Source: Gammaproteobacteria bacterium (GTDB taxonomy: Bacteria; Pseudomonadota; Gammaproteobacteria; JBIOEC01). Taken from it: a DNA stretch of 32,000 bases. Numbering within the stretch: position 1 is the stretch's first letter; every line of letters begins with the position of its first letter. Shown piece after piece: positions 20,310-31,423 of this stretch. The translations under genes were made by a program, and so were the position numbers. The DNA is taken from contig OZ257143.1 in the NCBI GenBank assembly GCA_965279305.1, forward strand, positions 1,110,001 to 1,142,000, in the 5' to 3' direction. The notes under the pieces were generated by a model. It was not told where the DNA came from. It searched no databases and saw only the letters and a program-made list of their open reading frames with translations.

Positions 20310-20474
20310 ATTTATCTTCTTTTCTATGATCATTTTTTGCACAATCAAAAGGTGGTCGTAGGTCAAACCCTCGTAGTTAACCCGCTAAATACTGCCAAAA
20401 TGGCCAGCCTGCGCTATACTACCAAAGTTAGAGTTGTTAATAGGTATTTTAACTAATGATCGGAGCGCAATATC

Positions 20475-21620
20475 GTGGATGCTATGTCAACACCAATACA
20501 ACCCGTAGCGAATCTCGCCCAGAGTGCCGTTGCGTATTATTGGGAACAAGACGATTTACATTTTCTTCCTGAACAACGGAAGGCAGTGGAGAAGTATGCA
20601 CAAGATAAGAGTGTTCAAGTAGCCGCGGAATATACCGATAAGCTAGATAAAAAGCGTAAAGGGTTTCCTGAGCTAGAAGCGGCGATAAAGTATTGCCAAC
20701 AACATAATTTACGTTTGTTAATAGCGAGACTGCATAATTTAACAACGTCAGAAGATTTTACAGATTTATTGCTGAAAAATAAGGTTAATTTTCTTTGCTT
20801 AGATAGACCGACGATTAACCCTTATACATTACAAGCTGTAGTAGAAGACATTAATCAGCGTCGCAAAGAACATAGCGATCGCATTAAGCATGGGTTAGAG
20901 TCCAGCACGGCTCATTTAGGTAACCCAAATGCGTTAAAAGAAATTATTAGGGTTAATAAGCCCAAAACTGAAAACGCTGTGATGTTCGCGCTTTTATTAT
21001 TACCGATTATTGCCAACTATCGCAGACAAGGTTTCTCTCAGCGTAAGATGGTAGATACATTGAATGCAGAAGGCTTCCCAGCTCCCGAAGGCGGAAAATG
21101 GGTATTAAGCCAGCTGCAGAAGGTATTGGATAGAATAGACCTAAACGTGATTGCCTTGAATAGTATTAGTACTATCCAAGACTGTAAGGCTAAGGGGCTT
21201 GATGAGGAACATACTATCAAGACTTTGAATGCATTAAGCGTTAGAGCCCCTCAAAGAGGGGGTTGGACACGTGAAGGATTGGCAGACGTTCGTGAACGTT
21301 TGGAGCTAATCGAAGAAATTGGCGTATTTAACGATTTTGTGCTAAACATATATCCCCATATGGTAAATTGGGTGAAACAAGGGCTTACCGATGCTGATAT
21401 CGCTAAGTCATTGAATGAACAGAATATTTCGGTTCCTGAGCGTATTTTATGGGAAATTGCCCAAGAGAAGCCTGAAGGAGCAGAGTTAGAGTCGGCTGAC
21501 ACGGGTTGGCAGGCAGAGAGAGTAAAGGTGGCCCGCAGTTTATCTGCTCGCCGAGCACAAGATATTAGACACTTTGTGAATCCACACACATACGAAGTGG
21601 CGCAAGGTATGATAAAATAG
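20475..21620 (+). CDS. Serine-recombinase (resolvase)-like protein lacking the catalytic residues, with a triplicated C-terminal DNA-binding-type motif; function unknown
   Basis: 381 aa. Residues ~18-135 follow the resolvase catalytic-domain pattern, but the YxRxS site reads AYYWEQ and the DRLxR site reads HNLTT. Three ungapped 27-aa repeats occur at aa 183-209, 238-264 and 300-326 (G-x9-LN-x6-P-x4-W). The start is GTG 20475 or ATG 20484. It is the first gene of the co-directional icmW-dotA string. Confidence 0.6.
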   Translation: MDAMSTPIQPVANLAQSAVAYYWEQDDLHFLPEQRKAVEKYAQDKSVQVAAEYTDKLDKKRKGFPELEAAIKYCQQHNLRLLIARLHNLTTSEDFTDLLLKNKVNFLCLDRPTINPYTLQAVVEDINQRRKEHSDRIKHGLESSTAHLGNPNALKEIIRVNKPKTENAVMFALLLLPIIANYRRQGFSQRKMVDTLNAEGFPAPEGGKWVLSQLQKVLDRIDLNVIALNSISTIQDCKAKGLDEEHTIKTLNALSVRAPQRGGWTREGLADVRERLELIEEIGVFNDFVLNIYPHMVNWVKQGLTDADIAKSLNEQNISVPERILWEIAQEKPEGAELESADTGWQAERVKVARSLSARRAQDIRHFVNPHTYEVAQGMIK

Positions 21621-21638: not shown

Positions 21639-21935
21639 ATGGCAATGTTAGACGATAGAAATTTAGGCAATATGCTATATGCTGCTCAAACAGCAGTAAA
21701 GACAGCTGTTGCTCCAAGCAAATTAGGCTTGCAAGCTGATGGCCTAGAAGCATTAATGCTTAACGTTACCCAATTGGGTAAAATGTTAAGTGATACATTT
21801 GCCCAAAGTATAGGCTTGGTTCCCATTGCCAAGGCTACAGCCCCCGTTCCTGCAGTCGCTCCAGCTACCCCTGCTATGGCTAAACAGCCTTCGGCAGCTC
21901 CTGGCCCAGCGTCTGCGGCACCAAGCCCAGGTTAA
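21639..21935 (+). CDS. Small hypothetical protein with an Ala/Pro-rich C-terminal tail
   Basis: 98 aa. A good RBS (AAGAGGA) lies about 7 nt upstream of the ATG. The stop is 9 nt before the icmW start. The N-terminal ~60 aa look helical. The C-terminal ~35 aa are low complexity (ATAPVPAVAPATPAMAKQPSAAPGPASAAPSPG). I recall no homologue. Confidence 0.5.
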   Translation: MAMLDDRNLGNMLYAAQTAVKTAVAPSKLGLQADGLEALMLNVTQLGKMLSDTFAQSIGLVPIAKATAPVPAVAPATPAMAKQPSAAPGPASAAPSPG

Positions 21936-21944
21936 GGCTAGCTT

Positions 21945-22388
21945 ATGCTGGACCTTAACCCGGATGCAGTTCGAAGTTATTGGCAAGAAAAGCATGACTA
22001 CGCGCTGTACCGCATTATCGAAGCCATGGAAGGTGTAGAAGGGTGGGTTACCGATGGTAACCCTGAAGTTGAAGCCGCTCTTAGCCATCTTATTAAAGCG
22101 CTAGATAAAGTTCAAAATTACGAACTGCATAATGAAGAAGCCCTTATCCAAATATTAAACACTCTAAAGGCTGCTAGAGCTTTTCGTTTACTTCAATTTT
22201 TTGATTCTTTAAAACCAGGCTCTGCTTCTAAGCTGCTGATTTTTGCTGAAGTGGCGAGTAACGAACCTGATGATATGCCTGGATTTTTTCTTAAACGTAA
22301 TTTAGTGTTTGAACGTTTACAATTAATGGGGCGTATTTTTGCTCCTGATCGAGTTGAATTAGTTCTTAAGGCTATTGATCGCGAATAA
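21945..22388 (+). CDS. icmW: Dot/Icm type IVB secretion adaptor/chaperone IcmW
   Basis: 147 aa. The sequence PGSASKLLIFAEVASNEPDDMPGFFLKRNLVFERLQLMGRIF closely parallels L. pneumophila IcmW (~151 aa) as recalled (PGSAS...GFFLKRNIVFERL). It is in a Dot/Icm context. Confidence 0.88.
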   Translation: MLDLNPDAVRSYWQEKHDYALYRIIEAMEGVEGWVTDGNPEVEAALSHLIKALDKVQNYELHNEEALIQILNTLKAARAFRLLQFFDSLKPGSASKLLIFAEVASNEPDDMPGFFLKRNLVFERLQLMGRIFAPDRVELVLKAIDRE

Positions 22389-22456
22389 GGTCATAGGTCA
22401 TCCTCTCTACCATTCCGCTTTTTTTACACCAGTTGGTTTTAGGTCAACAAGCTATT

Positions 22457-22485
22457 TTGTTATAGTAGCACTATACTTATATAAG
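22457..22485 (+). promoter_or_regulatory. Candidate sigma70 promoter (TTGTTA-N17-TATAAG) ahead of the 263-aa ORF/icmX/icmV/dotA
   Basis: TTGTTA at 22457-22462 and TATAAG at 22480-22485 have 17-nt spacing, inside the only sizeable gap (136 bp) in the + strand Dot/Icm string. This is a sequence-only prediction in an AT-rich region. Confidence 0.25.
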
Positions 22486-22524
22486 TATTATTTATCATAT
22501 TATAGATAGAGGTAATGTAATTTT

Positions 22525-23316
22525 ATGAAAGCTAATCGAACCGCTATTTCAGCTGCACTTTTAACCTTAGGAATGATGAGTGCCGCTACCTCTGGAGTTG
22601 CCATAGCTGCTGCTCCTTCAGTTTCTGCTGATATTCCTCCTGCTAGCCAAGAACAACAAGCAGAAGGGTATGATGGCAAACGTGATAAGAATGTTTATTA
22701 CGGAACTCAATCTAATACTACCAATACGCATTCCGGTGGCGCTGATGCTACTGTGATGATGCAGCAAGATAATACTATTAATCCAAGCACCGGTAATGAA
22801 GTGGTTTCTTCTACCGATGTGATAGTGGAAGAAAAAGGCCCTATTCAAACCACTTATCCAAGCTTTAGTGATGAAGAAATAGATAAATTATTTAATGTTA
22901 TTCAACCTGTAGAAGAAGCACCTGGTGTGCCTCCTTCTGAAGAAACAGCGCCTGTTGATCCGACTTCAGATGTTTATCGTCATGTTCCTGTGAATCCCGT
23001 CTATACTTACGGGAAGGATGAAGAAGGACAGGGCGTATGTGCGGGTACAGAAGAATTCTGTGCTAAGTCAGAAGAATTATGGAAAAACTTTGAAGACAAA
23101 GTCGCTAACGATGAGCCTATTACTCATACTGAAGGCGAAAACAAAGGTCAATTAATTCTGCCCGAATCTTACAAAGAAAGCGTAACGAATATGCCTAATG
23201 TAAAAGAAGACTGTCCTCCTGGATACGAATCTTATCCTGCAGGTAATCCCGATGTTGGTGTATCAGACCCACATTGCGGTAAACTAGAAGGAAACGTTTA
23301 TACTGTTAAACGTTAA
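22525..23316 (+). CDS. Secreted acidic protein of unknown function, encoded between icmW and icmX
   Basis: 263 aa. It has a signal peptide (MKANRTAISAALLTLGMMSAATSGVAIAAAPSVSA), an acidic Pro/Glu/Thr-rich mature region and four Cys in the C-terminal third (GVCAGTEEFCAK ... EDCPPGY ... DPHCGK). An RBS-like AGAGGT lies 12 nt upstream. Confidence 0.6.
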   Translation: MKANRTAISAALLTLGMMSAATSGVAIAAAPSVSADIPPASQEQQAEGYDGKRDKNVYYGTQSNTTNTHSGGADATVMMQQDNTINPSTGNEVVSSTDVIVEEKGPIQTTYPSFSDEEIDKLFNVIQPVEEAPGVPPSEETAPVDPTSDVYRHVPVNPVYTYGKDEEGQGVCAGTEEFCAKSEELWKNFEDKVANDEPITHTEGENKGQLILPESYKESVTNMPNVKEDCPPGYESYPAGNPDVGVSDPHCGKLEGNVYTVKR

Positions 23317-23336
23317 CATCAAGGGAGTGAGTGTTT

Positions 23337-24380
23337 ATGAGAAAGCCATGGAAACAGACAGTACAGGCGATCCTTTTAGCAACTAGTTCTTTAGTCATGA
23401 GCCAAGCCTTTGCGGCTAGTGATGAGCTGGTGAGTAATCTTTTCCAAGATCTCAAAAACTACATGGGTTTAATGCAAGGCGACGAACGCGAATATCAAAA
23501 TCGTTTGCGCGCTGTGCCACCTCCTTATTATGCCGTGAGTGCTACTAGTGGTAACGCCATTGTGGCGGCTGAAAATACGCAAGGCATGACAGAATTACAA
23601 AACTTTTTAATGTCACGTTTGATTGATTGGAATATGTTGCAAACCAGTCAAGAAGTGTCTAACTCCCGTTTAGTAGAACAACATTTATTAGGTTTTTGCT
23701 CTCAAGAAGAATCTGCTGCCAATTTTTGCGATGTGGGATTAACCATATCGGAAGGTGGTGCGGCTGATTTATTAGTCGATACTTTATTAAATAATGAAAC
23801 GCTGAGTGAAAATCAACAATTGTCAGTATGGGCATTTATTGATAATTTAACCAATCCTAGTCCTATTCCATTACCCGATAATACATTTACCTCTGAAGGA
23901 TTTACTAATGCGGCTAAAGCAACATTAGATGGATCTCCTATGGCTGAGATCCATGATTCTGTCAAAATTCGTCCGTTATCCGCGGAAGGGGTTCGTACCT
24001 TAGCGGCTCGTTATAAGCAAATGGCTTTTCTTTCTACCGCACAAAATGCGTTAAATCAAATTGCGGCTGACAGACATGTAATAAAGGGATTAGGCCAAGA
24101 GATGGGTATGGATGCGCCCGATGCCAGTATTTTTGCTGCTATGAAATTTGAATCGAACCGTCGTTATGGCGATGAAAATTGGCATAACGAAATGTATCAA
24201 GCGCCTGAAGCGGCATTGTTACGTGAAATAGCGAATATGCAAGCATTTCAATTAGCGTTAGACTTTAAGCGTTATGAGCAAGATTTAGTATTAACCACAT
24301 TATTAGCGGCGCAAGTATCTAGTAATGCGCAAGGTTTAGCAGCTGGAGAAATGGCAGCAACGGTTAATGTTCCACAATAG
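23337..24380 (+). CDS. icmX: Probable IcmX (periplasmic Dot/Icm component)
   Basis: About 347 aa with a signal peptide (MRKPWKQTVQAILLATSSLVMSQAFA). It lies in the icmW/icmV/dotA group, where icmX is the only expected secreted component. ATG 23337 is preferred because GGGAG at 23323-23327 is 9 nt upstream; the track start is GTG 23331. The identity rests on context and size, since I cannot recall the IcmX sequence. Confidence 0.55.
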   Translation: MRKPWKQTVQAILLATSSLVMSQAFAASDELVSNLFQDLKNYMGLMQGDEREYQNRLRAVPPPYYAVSATSGNAIVAAENTQGMTELQNFLMSRLIDWNMLQTSQEVSNSRLVEQHLLGFCSQEESAANFCDVGLTISEGGAADLLVDTLLNNETLSENQQLSVWAFIDNLTNPSPIPLPDNTFTSEGFTNAAKATLDGSPMAEIHDSVKIRPLSAEGVRTLAARYKQMAFLSTAQNALNQIAADRHVIKGLGQEMGMDAPDASIFAAMKFESNRRYGDENWHNEMYQAPEAALLREIANMQAFQLALDFKRYEQDLVLTTLLAAQVSSNAQGLAAGEMAATVNVPQ

Positions 24381-24394
24381 TTAAGGAATAAAAT

Positions 24395-24862
24395 ATGTTT
24401 GATCGTACAAAACGGCTAAGTGGTCGAATAAAAAGTGGTGTGGCTCGTGGAATGGGCTTTTCTTTTTTATACGATACTGGCACCATGATGAAACGTGTGG
24501 TCATGGGTTTTTTAGATTTTCCAAAAGCTGAAAAATCAGAAAGCTTTGCGCAAGCGGTTAAACGAATGAAATTAACTGAACAAGAGGTTGAACATCGCCG
24601 TAAGAATTTTTTAACACAATTTTTTATGTTTCTAATAGCCGCTTTTCTTTTATTTTCATATGCCGCATATGTTCTATTTCAAGGAAACTGGGCTACCGGT
24701 ATTGTCGGTATTTTGATGTCAGCTTTATTAGGTGCTCATGCACTACGTGCGCATTTTTGGGCCTTTCAAATCAAGCATCGTAAATTAGGCTGCACGTTAG
24801 AAGAATGGTGGAACGATAAAACCGTGCAAGAAGAAAAAGGGAAAGCCCCAAAAAAATCATAA
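24395..24862 (+). CDS. icmV: Dot/Icm inner-membrane protein IcmV
   Basis: 155 aa with two TM helices. The sequence ...RAHFWAFQIKHRKLGCTLEEWW matches the recalled L. pneumophila IcmV C-terminal signature (HFWYFQIK.RKLGC..EW). It is adjacent to dotA. Confidence 0.85.
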   Translation: MFDRTKRLSGRIKSGVARGMGFSFLYDTGTMMKRVVMGFLDFPKAEKSESFAQAVKRMKLTEQEVEHRRKNFLTQFFMFLIAAFLLFSYAAYVLFQGNWATGIVGILMSALLGAHALRAHFWAFQIKHRKLGCTLEEWWNDKTVQEEKGKAPKKS

Positions 24863-24870
24863 AAGATATA

Positions 24871-27189
24871 ATGTTAAAAGGTAATCATATGTTTCGTAGC
24901 CTACTCCTTGTTTTTGCATTAATGTTTTCAACCACTTTCGCTATTACCTATAGTGCTCCTAGTGCTGCGGCTACAGATGTAGGTGATATTTTTACACCGA
25001 CTGAAGGTGATTATTCTATTTATATTCTTTCTAAAATTTTTGGTGATATTGAACAAAGCGTATTGCCCGGTGAAGCGGCTGCGAGTGGTCCTCAATTACT
25101 GGGTAATGTTTTTCGTGTATTTAACGTTGTTGCATTGTCTCTAGGTGTGTTGATGGTAATTTATACCATTGTACTTGCCGTATTAAACACCGCTCATGCC
25201 GGTAAAATGATGGGTGAAAAAATGTCATCCATGTGGGTGCCGGTACGAATTGCTTTTGCTATCGCTATGTTAATTCCTAAAGCGAATGGTTATTGTTTAG
25301 CGCAAGTCGCCGTGATGTGGTTAGTCGTACAAGGTATTGGTGCAGCCGATAGTTTATGGAATACCGCACTCGATTATTTTGAAGCGGGTGGTGGATTGGG
25401 CGGGCAACAAATTCCCGGTACAGGCGAAGAGAGCATACAAGCCAGTTTAGATGCGGTGTATTTAAGTCTTTTGGAAGATACTTTACGTGCGGCCACCTGT
25501 GTTGCTGCTCACAATGCGACTCAATCAACTATTCAAGAGCCTTACACCATATACACTCAAGTGAGTGCCGATCAGCATTATTTAAATTTTGGACGTCAAT
25601 CACCTGCAGGTACTGTCTCTAGTGGAGGCGCACAAGAAGGTTATGAATGTGGACGTATTACTTTTGATTATTTTACGTCTAGCTATTTTGGTGGAGATGG
25701 CCAAGAAGCTAAAGATATGGCTAATATTGCGAACGCTACGCAAATGAGCATTGTCTATCAATTTGCTGGAAAATTATCAGTGATTGGTGTTGGAATTGCT
25801 GACGAAAATGTTGATCTCGCTTATTTACAGAGCGAATTTAATATTATGAAAAATGCTTCTATGAGTTATGTCACCGATATGACGAGTAATCAACAAGCAT
25901 TTATGATGCCTGAAGGTCCAAATGATTTAATTAGTGTAATGCGTGGACAAGGCTGGATTACAGCAGGCAATTACTATCAATTATTAACTCAATTTCAAGG
26001 CAGTTATAACTTTACACCAGAAAATAGTGTACCAGAAGTATCACCTCGTGAAACTCAAGCTTCTTTTGCCGCTTATCAAAGCCAGATAGAAGATGCAGAA
26101 TATATTTATGGTAATGATCCTAATGGTTTTATGAAATGGGAAAGTCGAAATTATTCTACTGAAGTGTCGCCTTCTCAACAAGCGCGTGAGGATATTCAAA
26201 AAGCATTTGAATCTGAAGCAGAAATTTTTGAGGCCATTGGTTTTACCAACGCCGTTATTAAATATGCCGGTAATTTTATGGATATAGTGTCGGGAGAATC
26301 TCAATCGGCTGATCCTATTTTGAATATTGCGCATTACGGACAATATTTAATGAAGGTGAGTATTGGTGTGATGTTAGGAATGGCTTATCTTATTCCTGGT
26401 ATTGGTTTGATTTTAGGTGCTATACCTTTTGTGGCTTTAGGTGCTAGCTATATGTCTGCTTTGATATTTGCTGTGATGCCATTAGTGATGTCTATGATGG
26501 GCTTGATGTATCTTCAAGGGGCTATGTTAGGTGTGTACTTACCATTTGTGCCGTTTATTATTTTTGCGATCGGTGCATTGGGCTGGATTATGGCGGTGAT
26601 TGAATCGATGGTAGCAGCACCATTAGTGGCCTTGGGTATGACGTTACCCGAAGGTCATGAAATTTATGGGCGAGCAGAGCCTGCGTATATGATGTTAATT
26701 AATTTATTTTTACGACCCTCACTGATGATATTAGGATTTGTGTCGGCATTATTGGTGACATGGTTGGCGGTAGATTTAATTAATTTAAGTTTTTACACGG
26801 CACTTCGTTATGGTGGAATAGCGCCTGATCCTATTGCGGGTCCTTTTGTGATTATTCTTTTATATATGGGCGTATTAGTAGCGTTAGTTACTAAAGTATT
26901 TAATTTAATTAATGTGGTGCCAGACAAAGTATTACGCTGGATTGGTGATAACACTCAAGCCGTGGGTGGTGCAGAAGACGTGCTCAGCCCTGCAAAACAA
27001 GGTACACAAGAAGGCGCGCAAGCTACAGGTCAAATGGGCAAACAAGGTGGAACGATGGGTCAGAAATCCAGTGGACCTGTCTTGGAAGCTCAGCATAGAA
27101 ATAGCAGCACATCTTCAGAAGAACCCGAGAAAAAAGAAGAGCAAGCGCAAAGTATTCGTTCGAATACGCGTCCCAACGAACGCGAGTAA
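24871..27189 (+). CDS. dotA: Dot/Icm polytopic inner-membrane protein DotA
   Basis: 772 aa. The N-terminal region (LGNVFRVFNVVALSLGVLMVIYTIVLAVLNTAHAGKMMGEKMSSMWVPVRIAFAIAMLIPKANGYCLAQVAVMWLVVQGIGAADSLW) closely parallels L. pneumophila DotA as recalled. It has a large periplasmic domain and then multiple C-terminal TM helices. ATG 24889 (MFRSLLLVF..., AAAGG 7 nt upstream) is an alternative start. Confidence 0.92.
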   Translation: MLKGNHMFRSLLLVFALMFSTTFAITYSAPSAAATDVGDIFTPTEGDYSIYILSKIFGDIEQSVLPGEAAASGPQLLGNVFRVFNVVALSLGVLMVIYTIVLAVLNTAHAGKMMGEKMSSMWVPVRIAFAIAMLIPKANGYCLAQVAVMWLVVQGIGAADSLWNTALDYFEAGGGLGGQQIPGTGEESIQASLDAVYLSLLEDTLRAATCVAAHNATQSTIQEPYTIYTQVSADQHYLNFGRQSPAGTVSSGGAQEGYECGRITFDYFTSSYFGGDGQEAKDMANIANATQMSIVYQFAGKLSVIGVGIADENVDLAYLQSEFNIMKNASMSYVTDMTSNQQAFMMPEGPNDLISVMRGQGWITAGNYYQLLTQFQGSYNFTPENSVPEVSPRETQASFAAYQSQIEDAEYIYGNDPNGFMKWESRNYSTEVSPSQQAREDIQKAFESEAEIFEAIGFTNAVIKYAGNFMDIVSGESQSADPILNIAHYGQYLMKVSIGVMLGMAYLIPGIGLILGAIPFVALGASYMSALIFAVMPLVMSMMGLMYLQGAMLGVYLPFVPFIIFAIGALGWIMAVIESMVAAPLVALGMTLPEGHEIYGRAEPAYMMLINLFLRPSLMILGFVSALLVTWLAVDLINLSFYTALRYGGIAPDPIAGPFVIILLYMGVLVALVTKVFNLINVVPDKVLRWIGDNTQAVGGAEDVLSPAKQGTQEGAQATGQMGKQGGTMGQKSSGPVLEAQHRNSSTSSEEPEKKEEQAQSIRSNTRPNERE

Positions 27190-30946: not shown

Positions 30947-31285
30947 CTAATCGTACATTAAGTCATCAAGGGCTATCGTATGTTTATCCGCTGCTGCTTC
31001 TATTAACTCATAAATAATTTCGGTTGCACATAATAATCGAAAAGAATCGGGTACTGTATCATCAAATTGGCAAATCACACCGAGTCTTGCATCGCTATCG
31101 GGTGGAAACTGAACACCTAAACCATAACTCAGGCAGAAAGCAGATAATTGATCTGCACGTCTCATAATAGCAGGTAATAGCCCGCGTTCAGCAAAAACAT
31201 CTTCTAGGGGGAGCACCTTGCCATTAAGTGTGAAATTAATTTTTAATTCTTCGGCAATGAAGGCGAGCTTAGAGCTTAGTTTCAT
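30947..31285 (-). CDS. icmS: Dot/Icm adaptor/chaperone IcmS
   Basis: 112 aa. The sequence LEDVFAERGLLPAIMRRADQLSAFCLSYGLG...FRLLCATEIIYELI...LDDLMYD parallels recalled L. pneumophila IcmS (114 aa, FDEVFSETGLLPAI..., ending ...LMYD). Confidence 0.88.
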   Translation of the reverse strand: MKLSSKLAFIAEELKINFTLNGKVLPLEDVFAERGLLPAIMRRADQLSAFCLSYGLGVQFPPDSDARLGVICQFDDTVPDSFRLLCATEIIYELIEAAADKHTIALDDLMYD

Positions 31286-31399: not shown

Positions 31400-31423
31400 A
31401 ACAGACCTACGGATGGGCAAAAA

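What the first reader, a model, noticed from the sequence alone, without database searches (positions are those of the whole stretch)
20475..21620. Catalytically dead serine-recombinase-like protein with a triplicated DNA-binding motif heading the icmW-dotA gene string
By eye, aa ~18-135 follow the resolvase/invertase catalytic-domain pattern (compare gamma-delta resolvase GYARVSTSQQ ... KLDRLGRD).

The equivalent segments here read AYYWEQDDLH (aa 20-29) and RLHNLTTS (aa 85-92). The Ser nucleophile and the conserved Arg/Asp residues are therefore all substituted.

The C-terminal half carries three ungapped copies of one 27-aa unit, encoded at nt 21021-21452:
- RRQGFSQRKMVDTLNAEGFPAPEGGKW (aa 183-209)
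- KAKGLDEEHTIKTLNALSVRAPQRGGW (aa 238-264)
- VKQGLTDADIAKSLNEQNISVPERILW (aa 300-326)

This 'G..S..IA..LN..G...P.G..W' unit normally occurs once, after the catalytic domain of small serine recombinases.

The gene sits 18 bp upstream of the next ORF and is co-directional with icmW...dotA. This suggests a domesticated recombinase reused as a regulator or accessory factor of the type IVB system, not a mobility enzyme. I know of no described Dot/Icm component of this kind.
Basis: partly seen in the sequence, partly recalled or inferred. Interest (0 to 1): 0.75.

Follow-up and report, generated by a model that had tools for sequence, protein, structure and literature searches.

The report
Inactivated recombinase beside Dot/Icm secretion genes
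This gene encodes a DNA-cutting enzyme (a serine recombinase) that lost its cutting residues long ago but is still carefully conserved next to the type IVB secretion genes of an uncultured Legionella-like bacterial group, where it most likely now works as a DNA-binding switch for those genes.

Summary
ORF 20475-21620 encodes a 381-aa protein with a confidently predicted resolvase-type N-terminal domain. Its family profile hits genuine ~220-aa serine recombinases at E~1e-20.

The catalytic set is gone: R8->W23, S10 absent, R45->F64, D67->H87, R68->N88, R71->T91. All 44 homologues examined lack the Arg/Ser pair.

The C-terminal half is a true triplication. The unit is ~53 aa, not 27, and sub-profiles match each other at 97.5-98.2% probability. 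Only unit 1 is basic and nearly invariant.

The gene is not decaying: dN/dS is 0.046 against a 98%-identical relative.

All 70 related loci come from Berkiella/Legionellales-type metagenomic genomes. icmW, icmX, icmV or dotA lie within 10 kb in 37 of the 44 loci with enough flank, although gene order differs between two clades.

New evidence: the 12-mer GGTCRTAGGTCA occurs exactly twice in the window, upstream of this gene and just after icmW. Across the 70 genome-scan loci plus the window, all 25 intergenic TAGGTCA copies lie upstream of this gene or in gaps next to icmW/icmV.

Most likely it is an autoregulated DNA-binding regulator of Dot/Icm region I. DNA binding itself is inferred, not shown. 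I found no description of the family.

The parts
20475..21620 (+). Gene for the inactivated serine-recombinase-like protein ('RecL' in my notes), 381 aa; possible alternative start ATG at 20484
   Evidence: dN/dS 0.046 against L072
20520..20912 (+). Resolvase-fold N-terminal domain plus long helix E (aa 16-146). Catalytic R8, S10, R45, D67, R68 and R71 equivalents are lost (W23, deletion, F64, H87, N88, T91)
20919..20984 (+). Near-invariant GNPNA...VN.PK linker helix (aa 149-170). It sits at the position of the minor-groove arm of active recombinases (LGNP is also present in the active relatives)
20985..21143 (+). Repeat unit 1 (aa 171-223): basic and almost invariant (APEGG.WVLSQLQKVL.R). Matches PF07508 and PF20552
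21150..21308 (+). Repeat unit 2 (aa 226-278): acidic and variable apart from W264 and R275
21336..21467 (+). Repeat unit 3 (aa 288-331): acidic
21510..21617 (+). Basic C-terminal tail (aa 346-381, pI 10.9) specific to the window's clade. The majority clade has a different extension, fused or encoded as a separate ORF
20354..20365 (+). Candidate operator GGTCGTAGGTCA, about 110 nt upstream of the start. The ~125 nt from here to the start codon are almost identical in L072, while the DNA further upstream has diverged
20392..20420 (+). Sigma-70-like promoter match (CTGCCA-17-TATACT), followed by a degenerate TAGGTAT at 20441-20447
   Evidence: consensus match only
22389..22400 (+). Second exact copy, GGTCATAGGTCA, a perfect tandem AGGTCAT x2. 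It starts right after the icmW stop codon and lies upstream of the 263-aa gene
22435..22446 (+). Third copy, GGTTTTAGGTCA (2 mismatches), 14 nt upstream of a TATAGT hexamer. The block is conserved in L071 and L072
31404..31409 (-). Weak extra site, TAGGTC(T), in the icmS|dotD divergent gap
   Evidence: a 6-mer on its own is not significant
21639..21935 (+). Small 98-aa ORF between this gene and icmW. Has a ribosome-binding site, an Ala/Pro-rich tail and no family hit. It evolves fast
21945..22388 (+). icmW
   Evidence: Pfam 3e-46, NCBIfam 4.5e-39
22525..24380 (+). 263-aa gene and 349-aa gene in the icmX position. Neither has a family hit; the 349-aa protein is syntenic with cluster 5 in 43 loci
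24395..27189 (+). icmV and dotA
   Evidence: NCBIfam 8.6e-29 for icmV; TIGR04346 2.9e-104 for dotA

Best explanation
The protein is an ancient, catalytically inactivated descendant of a ~220-aa small serine recombinase, the class that carries one C-terminal 'G.s..IA..LN..G..P.GG.W' helix-turn-helix unit. That unit has been triplicated here.

I propose it works as a sequence-specific DNA-binding protein that no longer cuts DNA:
- It dimerises through the retained resolvase fold and helix E.
- It contacts DNA through the basic helix-E arm (GNPNA linker) and the invariant unit 1.
- It sits on TAGGTC(A/T)-core sites in its own promoter and in promoters next to icmW/icmV.

This would make it an autoregulated local transcription regulator of Dot/Icm region I (icmW-icmX, icmV-dotA) in a Berkiella/Legionellales-like lineage.

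Shown:
- homology and fold;
- loss of the catalytic residues family-wide;
- the repeat architecture;
- purifying selection;
- conserved linkage to region I;
- non-random placement of the motif.

Inferred:
- dimerisation;
- that this protein, rather than another factor, binds the motif;
- the direction of regulation.
For: **Homology and inactivation**
- The N-terminal profile hits 5,018 proteins at E<=1e-3 and 2,054 at E<=1e-10. After the family's own representatives come active recombinases (VAYYRVST..., LIIAKLDRLxRN) at about 1e-20. These score PF00239 at 1e-26 to 1e-31.
- Residue mapping is; fold evidence is.
- In the full family alignment (44 sequences) no Ser or Arg is conserved at the catalytic positions; the residue-level mapping rests on the 8 members aligned with active enzymes.

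**Function retained**
- dN/dS is 0.046, against 0.053 for both ech and icmV.
- The APEGG.WVLSQLQKVL.R segment is invariant in sequences that are otherwise ~35% identical.
- The helix-E/linker region and unit 1 are basic.

**Link to the T4BSS**
- 37 of 44 loci with enough flank carry region I genes within 10 kb.
- The left-hand neighbours differ between clades (liu/acetoacetyl-CoA synthetase genes versus map/glnD), while the icm genes are the constant right-hand neighbour.

**Motif**
- The exact 12-mer occurs twice in 32 kb, at the two promoter-type gaps flanking the RecL-orf98-icmW block. By my calculation about 0.008 exact matches are expected by chance.
- TAGGTCA has 25 intergenic copies in the 70 genome-scan loci plus the window. 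All 25 lie in gaps upstream of this gene or adjacent to icmW/icmV, which make up 16% of intergenic DNA. None lie elsewhere.
- Permuted 7-mers give a mean of 1.9 (sd 2.3) in those gaps. The only high scorers are shifted versions of the same element.
- An element CTATACTAGGTCT overlaps a -10-like hexamer upstream of the gene in about 21 loci.
- The motif-bearing block is conserved between the window, L072 and the 70%-identical L071.

**Precedent** (established knowledge): Tn3/gamma-delta resolvase is itself a repressor of tnpA/tnpR through its res sites, so losing catalysis while keeping site-specific binding is a short evolutionary step.
Against: - No direct evidence of DNA binding exists. The motif could belong to another regulator or to an unusual promoter class.
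- The motif next to icmW/icmV is present in only 11 of 41 such gaps, mostly one sub-clade plus the window. The sites are phylogenetically non-independent, so the shuffle statistics overstate significance.
- In the majority clade the gene is closest to map and to a Zn-ribbon gene, not to icm genes. Seven loci with long downstream flanks show no T4BSS gene within 10 kb.
- Units 2 and 3 are acidic.
- The C-terminal domain as a whole has no structural match, so its DNA-binding mode cannot be modelled by analogy.
- The whole protein has a pI of 6.6.
Confidence: 0.5

Rival explanations
1. It is a DNA-binding regulator or nucleoid-type protein whose role is unrelated to secretion. On this reading, its nearness to icmW/icmV is synteny inherited within one lineage.
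For: In about 46 loci it directly follows map (or glnD), next to the universally conserved rpsB-tsf-pyrH-frr-uppS-cdsA block. It is separated from icmX by 2-9 kb of variable genes. Seven long-flank loci lack T4BSS genes nearby.
Against: The window's clade has lost map and the Zn-ribbon gene as neighbours and has acquired liu genes instead, yet the gene still abuts icmW. The TAGGTCA element is shared specifically with icm-adjacent gaps and with no other intergenic DNA.
Confidence: 0.2
2. It is a protein-protein accessory factor of the Dot/Icm coupling complex, for example an adaptor working with IcmW/IcmS. The helical repeats would then be binding surfaces rather than DNA readers.
For: It is adjacent to and co-directional with icmW, with no terminator-like site between them. 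Units 2 and 3 are acidic. The C-terminal domain is a compact novel all-alpha fold (pTM 0.85, no PDB match). The cultured Berkiella genomes are reported to lack LvgA (PMC9803151), which leaves room for a substitute adaptor.
Against: The best-conserved segment is the unit that matches recombinase helix-turn-helix families, plus the arm region that contacts DNA in active enzymes. In most genomes the gene is not in an operon with icm genes. This reading does not explain the shared DNA motif.
Confidence: 0.12
3. It is still an active recombinase or invertase that uses an unconventional nucleophile. It might, for instance, flip the icmX-icmW segment, whose orientation differs between the two clades.
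For: The icmX-icmW block is inverted relative to this gene between the two clades. The two exact 12-mers flank the RecL-orf98-icmW block.
Against: R8, S10, R45, D67, R68 and R71 are all lost, and there is no Ser or Thr in the b1-aA loop. No alternative conserved nucleophile appears in the N-terminal domain. The 12-mers are direct repeats, not inverted. The orientation is fixed within each clade.
Confidence: 0.03
4. It is a decaying remnant of a mobile element with no current function.
For: It belongs to a recombinase superfamily that is typical of mobile elements.
Against: dN/dS is 0.046. The ORF is intact in all 70 genome-scan loci plus L071 and L072, at 35-98% identity with invariant motifs. 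It is single-copy and chromosomal, beside housekeeping genes.
Confidence: 0.01

Closest known systems
Small serine recombinases of ~220 aa with a PF00239 catalytic domain and one C-terminal PF20552 (HTH_62) / PF07508-N-terminal unit (e.g. P0153, P0154, P0157, P0250)
   Same: These are the closest sequence relatives: E~1e-20 to the N-terminal profile and alignable end to end through unit 1, including the LGNP arm.
   Different: They keep Y-R-V-S-T and L-D-R-L-x-R and are presumably active. They have one unit (a few relatives have more) and show no link to a T4BSS. The window family has lost the catalytic set and carries three units plus a tail.
Tn3 / gamma-delta resolvase (TnpR; PDB 1GDT)
   Same: Same catalytic-domain fold and helix E. 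TnpR also acts as a transcriptional repressor at res (established knowledge), which is the activity I propose has been retained here.
   Different: TnpR has an HTH_7-type C-terminal domain and is catalytically active. Sequence similarity to the window family is weak: hhalign against the single sequence gives E 0.4.
Large serine recombinases / phage integrases (PF00239 + PF07508 + zinc ribbon; TP901-1 integrase, 3bvp)
   Same: The catalytic domain of 3bvp is a top structural match. The repeat unit matches positions ~10-50 of the PF07508 'Recombinase' domain.
   Different: The window protein has no complete recombinase domain, no zinc ribbon or coiled coil, and no catalytic serine.
Known Dot/Icm regulators of Legionella and Coxiella (PmrA, CpxR, the LetA-RsmYZ-CsrA cascade)
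   Same: The proposed role is the same: control of dot/icm promoters through short repeated sites close to the -35/-10 region (established knowledge for PmrA).
   Different: They are unrelated protein families (response regulators and an RNA-binding protein). Their motifs differ (PmrA uses a TTAA-type tandem repeat). None is recombinase-derived.
StbA N-terminal DNA-binding domain of plasmid R388 (PDB 7pc1)
   Same: There is a weak profile match to the unit 2/3 region (E 0.21, 54 residues), sharing the 'G....dI...LN..G' pattern.
   Different: The match is not significant, so this is a lead only.

Membership tests
Serine recombinase superfamily (resolvase/invertase, PF00239) | Catalytic-domain fold (b-a-b sandwich followed by long helix E) and detectable sequence homology | tested here: met
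   The AlphaFold topology fits. Top PDB hits are 3guv and 3bvp. The family profile hits PF00239 proteins at about 1e-20. The window protein alone scores just under the Pfam cut-off.
Serine recombinase superfamily (resolvase/invertase, PF00239) | Nucleophilic serine (S10 of gamma-delta resolvase) in the b1-aA loop | tested here: not met
   The V-S-T segment is deleted and there is no Ser or Thr between Y22 and Q34. Other family members have D, A, Q, N, P or T at that column and never the accompanying Arg.
Serine recombinase superfamily (resolvase/invertase, PF00239) | Active-site Arg/Asp set (R8, R45, D67, R68, R71) | tested here: not met
   The equivalents are W23, F64, H87, N88 and T91. Only D36 (D55), Y6 (Y21) and R125 (R136) are kept.
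Serine recombinase superfamily (resolvase/invertase, PF00239) | Paired recombination sites on which the enzyme acts | tested here: inconclusive
   Two exact direct 12-mers flank RecL-orf98-icmW, but nothing shows that they recombine.
Large serine recombinases | Complete recombinase domain (PF07508, ~100 aa) followed by a zinc-ribbon/coiled-coil domain | tested here: not met
   Only profile positions ~10-50 of PF07508 are matched, and there is no zinc-ribbon hit.
Dot/Icm type IVB secretion system (as a component or dedicated regulator) | Conserved genomic association with dot/icm genes | tested here: met
   37 of 44 loci with long downstream flanks have icmW, icmX, icmV or dotA within 10 kb. 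The gene is adjacent and co-directional in the window's clade.
Dot/Icm type IVB secretion system (as a component or dedicated regulator) | Presence in the reference systems of Legionella pneumophila and Coxiella burnetii | tested here: not met
   No cultured Legionella or Coxiella genome is among the 70 loci or the named protein hits. The genome scan needs the invariant peptide patterns, so very divergent homologues could have been missed.
Dot/Icm type IVB secretion system (as a component or dedicated regulator) | Physical or regulatory interaction with the machinery | not testable with these tools
   This needs binding, expression or interaction experiments.
Autoregulated local transcription factor | DNA-binding domain plus a shared operator in its own promoter and in neighbouring target promoters | tested here: inconclusive
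   A helix-turn-helix-type unit is present, and the TAGGTC(A/T) element is shared by this gene's promoter and icm promoters. Which protein binds the element is unknown.

The most novel reading that the evidence does not exclude
The protein may keep the site-pairing (synapsis) ability of a resolvase without cutting. Dimers bound at the two direct GGTCRTAGGTCA sites, 2,035 bp apart on either side of RecL-orf98-icmW, would pair like res sites and loop the DNA. A dead recombination synapse would then have become a topological on/off switch for Dot/Icm region I. This would be a lineage-specific core regulator of a type IVB secretion system, of a kind not known in Legionella or Coxiella.
Probability: 0.1. 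Interest if true: 0.85.

Novelty: new variant of a known kind. Interest (0 to 1): 0.62.

Why it matters
Dot/Icm systems are the defining virulence machines of Legionellales. Their regulation is known only from Legionella and Coxiella (PmrA, CpxR, CsrA).

This finding points to an undescribed protein family with these properties:
- it is conserved and lineage-restricted;
- it derives from a mobile-element enzyme that lost catalysis but kept its fold;
- its DNA-reading unit was triplicated;
- it stayed beside region I through at least one large rearrangement.

The finding also supplies a concrete candidate operator, TAGGTC(A/T). That makes the regulator idea directly testable with a purified protein and two short DNA fragments, even though the organisms are uncultured.

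More generally, it would be a clean bacterial example of a serine recombinase domesticated into a regulator.

Tried and rejected
**Searches that found nothing useful**
- Sequence searches of the PDB gave no recombinase hit, whether with the single protein, the full-length family profile or the N-terminal profile. The link needed the 1.84-billion-protein profile search instead.
- hhalign of the N-terminal profile against gamma-delta resolvase alone was not significant (E 0.4), although it paired LHNLTT with LDRLGR.
- Foldseek of the C-terminal 232 aa found no significant match against the PDB or viral structures. Its resemblance to the recombinase domain therefore rests on sequence profiles only.
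- Literature searches found nothing on this family, on HTH_62, or on a recombinase-like gene near icmW.

**Ideas tested and set aside**
- The 98-aa ORF as a conserved partner: small ORFs of 65-98 aa sit at the same place in 8 of 9 window-clade loci, but they share no clear similarity. dN/dS is 0.46, so this stays unresolved.
- The TAGGTCA copy 380 nt upstream in L071, and its counterpart in L001, lie inside the homologous acetoacetyl-CoA synthetase coding sequence. I did not count them as operator evidence.
- The 6-mer TAGGTC alone is not enriched in the window (10 found, 9.0 expected).

**Readings rejected**
- The pseudogene reading and the active-recombinase reading are both rejected; see the rival explanations.
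Full report
**1. What is in the window**

The ORF at 20475-21620 (+) is real and encodes 381 aa. A GGAG lies 9 nt before the GTG start. A 98%-identical relative was called from the in-frame ATG three codons later.

Gene order around it:
- Upstream: leucine-catabolism genes (isovaleryl-CoA dehydrogenase, methylcrotonyl-CoA carboxylase beta subunit, enoyl-CoA hydratase).
- Downstream, all co-directional: a 98-aa ORF (18-nt gap), icmW, a 263-aa gene, a 349-aa gene in the icmX position, icmV and dotA.
- Then, on the other strand: dotL, dotM and icmS, followed by dotD.

The gene therefore sits at the left edge of a compact Dot/Icm locus. No terminator-like site lies between it and icmW.

**2. The N-terminal domain is a resolvase fold with the chemistry removed**

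On its own the protein scores just below Pfam's cut-off for PF00239 (20.7-23.0 vs 23.3 bits). Family-level evidence settles the homology:
- 20 of 44 homologues hit PF00239, the best at 1e-7.
- A profile of the first 150 residues, searched against 1.84 billion representative proteins, found 5,018 hits at E<=1e-3 and 2,054 at E<=1e-10. After about 40 representatives of the family itself, the list continues with ~220-aa proteins at E~1e-20.
- Those proteins read VAYYRVST...SGLGLEAQ...LIIAKLDRLxRN and score PF00239 at 1e-26 to 1e-31.
- An AlphaFold model built on 44 sequences has mean pLDDT 90.9 and the b1-aA-b2-aB-b3-aC/D-b4-helix E order.
- Its two best PDB matches are a resolvase-family catalytic domain (3guv) and the TP901-1 integrase catalytic domain (3bvp: target-normalised TM-score 0.65, rmsd 3.6 Å, 21% identity).

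I aligned the window protein with 7 family members, 12 active relatives and gamma-delta resolvase, whose recalled sequence I verified as identical to 1GDT. The mapping is:

| gamma-delta resolvase | window protein |
|---|---|
| Y6 | Y21 (kept) |
| R8 | W23 |
| V-S10-T | falls in a 5-residue deletion; no Ser/Thr between Y22 and Q34 |
| D36 | D55 (kept) |
| R45 | F64 |
| D67 | H87 |
| R68 | N88 |
| R71 | T91 |
| R125 | R136 (kept) |

No family member keeps the Arg-x-Ser pair. The only invariant or near-invariant serines (S188, S212) are in the C-terminal unit. The label 'catalytically dead' is therefore justified.

**3. The C-terminal half is a genuine triplication**

These scores were reached in 0, 4e-4 and 4.5e-4 of 20,000 shuffles, and they are the top off-diagonal matches in the protein.
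- Sub-profiles cut from the family alignment match one another at 98.2%, 97.7% and 97.5% probability (E 6e-14 to 6e-12). The repeat extends to ~53 aa: residues 171-223, 226-278 and 288-331.
- Unit 1 matches PF07508 positions ~10-50 and PF20552. All 44 members hit PF07508 and 41 hit PF20552.
A few active relatives carry several units (P0142).

The three units are not equivalent:
- Unit 1 and the preceding GNPNA...VN.PK helix are almost invariant (APEGG.WVLSQLQKVL.R) and basic (pI 8.2; helix-E/linker region 9.3).
- Units 2 and 3 are variable and acidic (pI 5.6 and 4.2).

The C-terminal 232 aa fold into one compact all-alpha domain (pLDDT 93, pTM 0.85). It has no significant match in the PDB or among viral models.

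**4. The gene is maintained by selection**

Against the 98%-identical relative (L072), dN/dS is 0.046 at dS 0.196. That is the same range as ech (0.053), icmV (0.053) and the 263-aa gene (0.069). The 98-aa ORF gives 0.46.

**5. Distribution and neighbourhood**

The protein search returned 273 hits. The best 120 are all 295-499-aa members of the family, and nearly all are unnamed metagenomic proteins.

A scan of one genome per species (GTDB) gave 70 loci. All are MAGs labelled Berkiella, Berkiellales, Legionellales, Legionellaceae, Coxiellaceae, 'Francisellaceae' or unclassified Gammaproteobacteria. None is a cultured Legionella or Coxiella.

tblastn with the window's proteins, plus clustering of all ORFs in the loci, shows two arrangements:
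- **Window's clade** (window, L002-L008, L071, L072): liu genes or acetoacetyl-CoA synthetase > this gene > (small ORF) > icmW > x > icmX > (membrane protein) > icmV > dotA.
- **Majority clade:** dxr-cdsA-uppS-frr-pyrH-tsf-rpsB | map > (glnD) > this gene > a ~280-aa Zn-ribbon protein > 2-9 kb of variable genes < membrane protein < icmX < icmW | icmV > dotA.

Of the 44 loci with at least 9 kb downstream, 37 contain icmW, icmX, icmV or dotA within 10 kb. The left-hand neighbours differ between the clades; the icm genes are the constant neighbour.

This argues for a functional tie. Part of it could still be inherited synteny, and the loci are not phylogenetically independent.

**6. A shared DNA element**

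In the window:
- A repeat search flagged GGTCGTAGGTCA at 20354, about 110 nt upstream of the start, and GGTCATAGGTCA at 22389, which begins right after the icmW stop codon.
- These are the only two exact matches to GGTCRTAGGTCA in 32 kb. By my calculation about 0.008 are expected.
- A third copy with two mismatches lies 46 nt further on, 14 nt upstream of a TATAGT hexamer.

Across the 70 genome-scan loci plus the window (1.09 Mb):
- TAGGTCA occurs 25 times in intergenic DNA. All 25 copies are either upstream of this gene or in gaps adjacent to icmW/icmV. Those gaps make up 16% of intergenic bases.
- 629 permuted 7-mers average 1.9 (sd 2.3) in those gaps. The only high scorers (ACTAGGT, TACTAGG, ATAGGTC) are shifted readings of the same element.
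- About 21 majority-clade loci carry CTATACTAGGTCT 40-90 nt upstream of the gene, overlapping a -10-like TATACT.
- TAGGTC lies within 200 nt upstream in 32 of the 61 loci with an upstream gap of at least 40 nt.
- In icmW|icmV gaps the element reads TGTTTGCTGATAGGTCA, but it is present in only 11 of 41 such gaps.

Conservation of the motif regions:
- Between the window and L072, the ~125 nt from the motif to the start codon are nearly identical, while the DNA further upstream has diverged with indels.
- The icmW-proximal block is conserved out to the 70%-identical L071.

A transcription-factor gene whose own promoter shares an operator with the adjacent operons is the classic signature of a local, autoregulated regulator. 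It does not prove which protein binds.

**7. Mechanism proposed**

1. The retained resolvase fold and helix E provide a dimer (inferred from the family).
2. The basic arm and unit 1 read TAGGTC(A/T) sites (inferred).
3. Binding at its own promoter, overlapping or flanking the -10, gives autoregulation. Binding at -35-proximal sites next to icmW/icmV controls region I (inferred).

Tn3/gamma-delta resolvase already doubles as a repressor (established knowledge), so loss of catalysis with retention of binding is a plausible path.

I put about 0.5 on this model. The rivals are a regulator unrelated to secretion (0.2), a protein-protein accessory factor or adaptor (0.12; the cultured Berkiella genomes are reported to lack LvgA, PMC9803151), a still-active recombinase (0.03) and a relic (0.01).

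**8. Comparison with the known, and novelty**

[quoted passage not shown] It should be filed as an inactivated derivative, not as a recombinase.

It is not a large serine recombinase: the recombinase domain is incomplete and there is no zinc ribbon. It resembles no described Dot/Icm regulator or component. Full-text searches found no description of the family, of HTH_62, or of a recombinase-like gene next to icmW.

I rate it a new variant of a known kind. It is specific, conserved and testable, but its function is not yet shown.

Noticed in passing
window 21639-21935 (+); L071 11163-11441; L002-L007 between this gene and icmW: A small ORF (65-98 aa) occupies the gap between the recombinase-like gene and icmW in 8 of 9 window-clade loci. 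The sequences are barely alignable and dN/dS is 0.46 against the 98% relative. This could be a fast-evolving small protein, reminiscent of the variable IcmR-like genes of Legionella, or non-coding spacer.
   Followed up: partly
L010 4473-5282, L011 11466-12302 and 48 other loci (ORF cluster 1); absent from the window: In the majority clade a ~280-aa protein always follows the recombinase-like gene. It has a CxxC...CxxC zinc ribbon resembling the IS1595 transposase N-terminus (Pfam E 2e-4, below cut-off). This looks like a second possibly domesticated mobile-element DNA-binding protein forming a conserved pair.
   Followed up: partly
L011 10888-11259 and about 20 other loci (two adjacent ORFs in cluster 0); P0045, P0053, P0083, P0121: The majority clade has a ~120-aa C-terminal extension (…IPAYLKIVK.HI.QL…). 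In some genomes it is fused to the protein (455-499 aa). In others it is encoded as a separate ORF immediately downstream.
   Followed up: no
Compare window 21945-24380 with L011 15111-17222, L031 and others: The icmW-icmX block is inverted relative to icmV-dotA between the two clades. It is co-directional in the window's clade and divergent, as in Legionella, in the majority clade. The breakpoint sits next to the recombinase-like gene.
   Followed up: partly
window 31404-31409 (-): A TAGGTCT copy lies in the short divergent gap between icmS (30947-31285, -) and dotD (31424, +), about 15 nt from the dotD start. It may be a further site of the same element, but a 6-mer alone is not significant.
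   Followed up: partly
P0142, P0143, P0146, P0126 (hits): These active relatives contain two complete catalytic domains in one chain, each followed by one or two of the helix-turn-helix units. The module is evidently prone to duplication.
   Followed up: no
P0210 (300 aa): This is a separate relative that also lacks the catalytic Ser/Arg (IGYYLFNAQ..., LVIAKIGRLVDN) and has one C-terminal unit. Inactivation may have happened more than once in this recombinase class.
   Followed up: no
window 22525-23316 and 23331-24380 (+): The 263-aa protein and the 349-aa protein in the icmX position have no significant Pfam or NCBIfam hit. The 349-aa one is nevertheless conserved in 43 loci at that position. 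DotA here is short (772 aa) and scores below the NCBIfam equivalog cut-off (395 vs 500 bits).
   Followed up: partly
L013, L019, L026, L029, L031, L037 and others, ORF cluster 14 (~840 aa) between the Zn-ribbon gene and icmX: The variable stretch between the recombinase-like gene and icmX carries large, proline- and charge-rich, low-complexity proteins plus cargo such as a split P450. It looks like an effector or accessory-gene hotspot.
   Followed up: no
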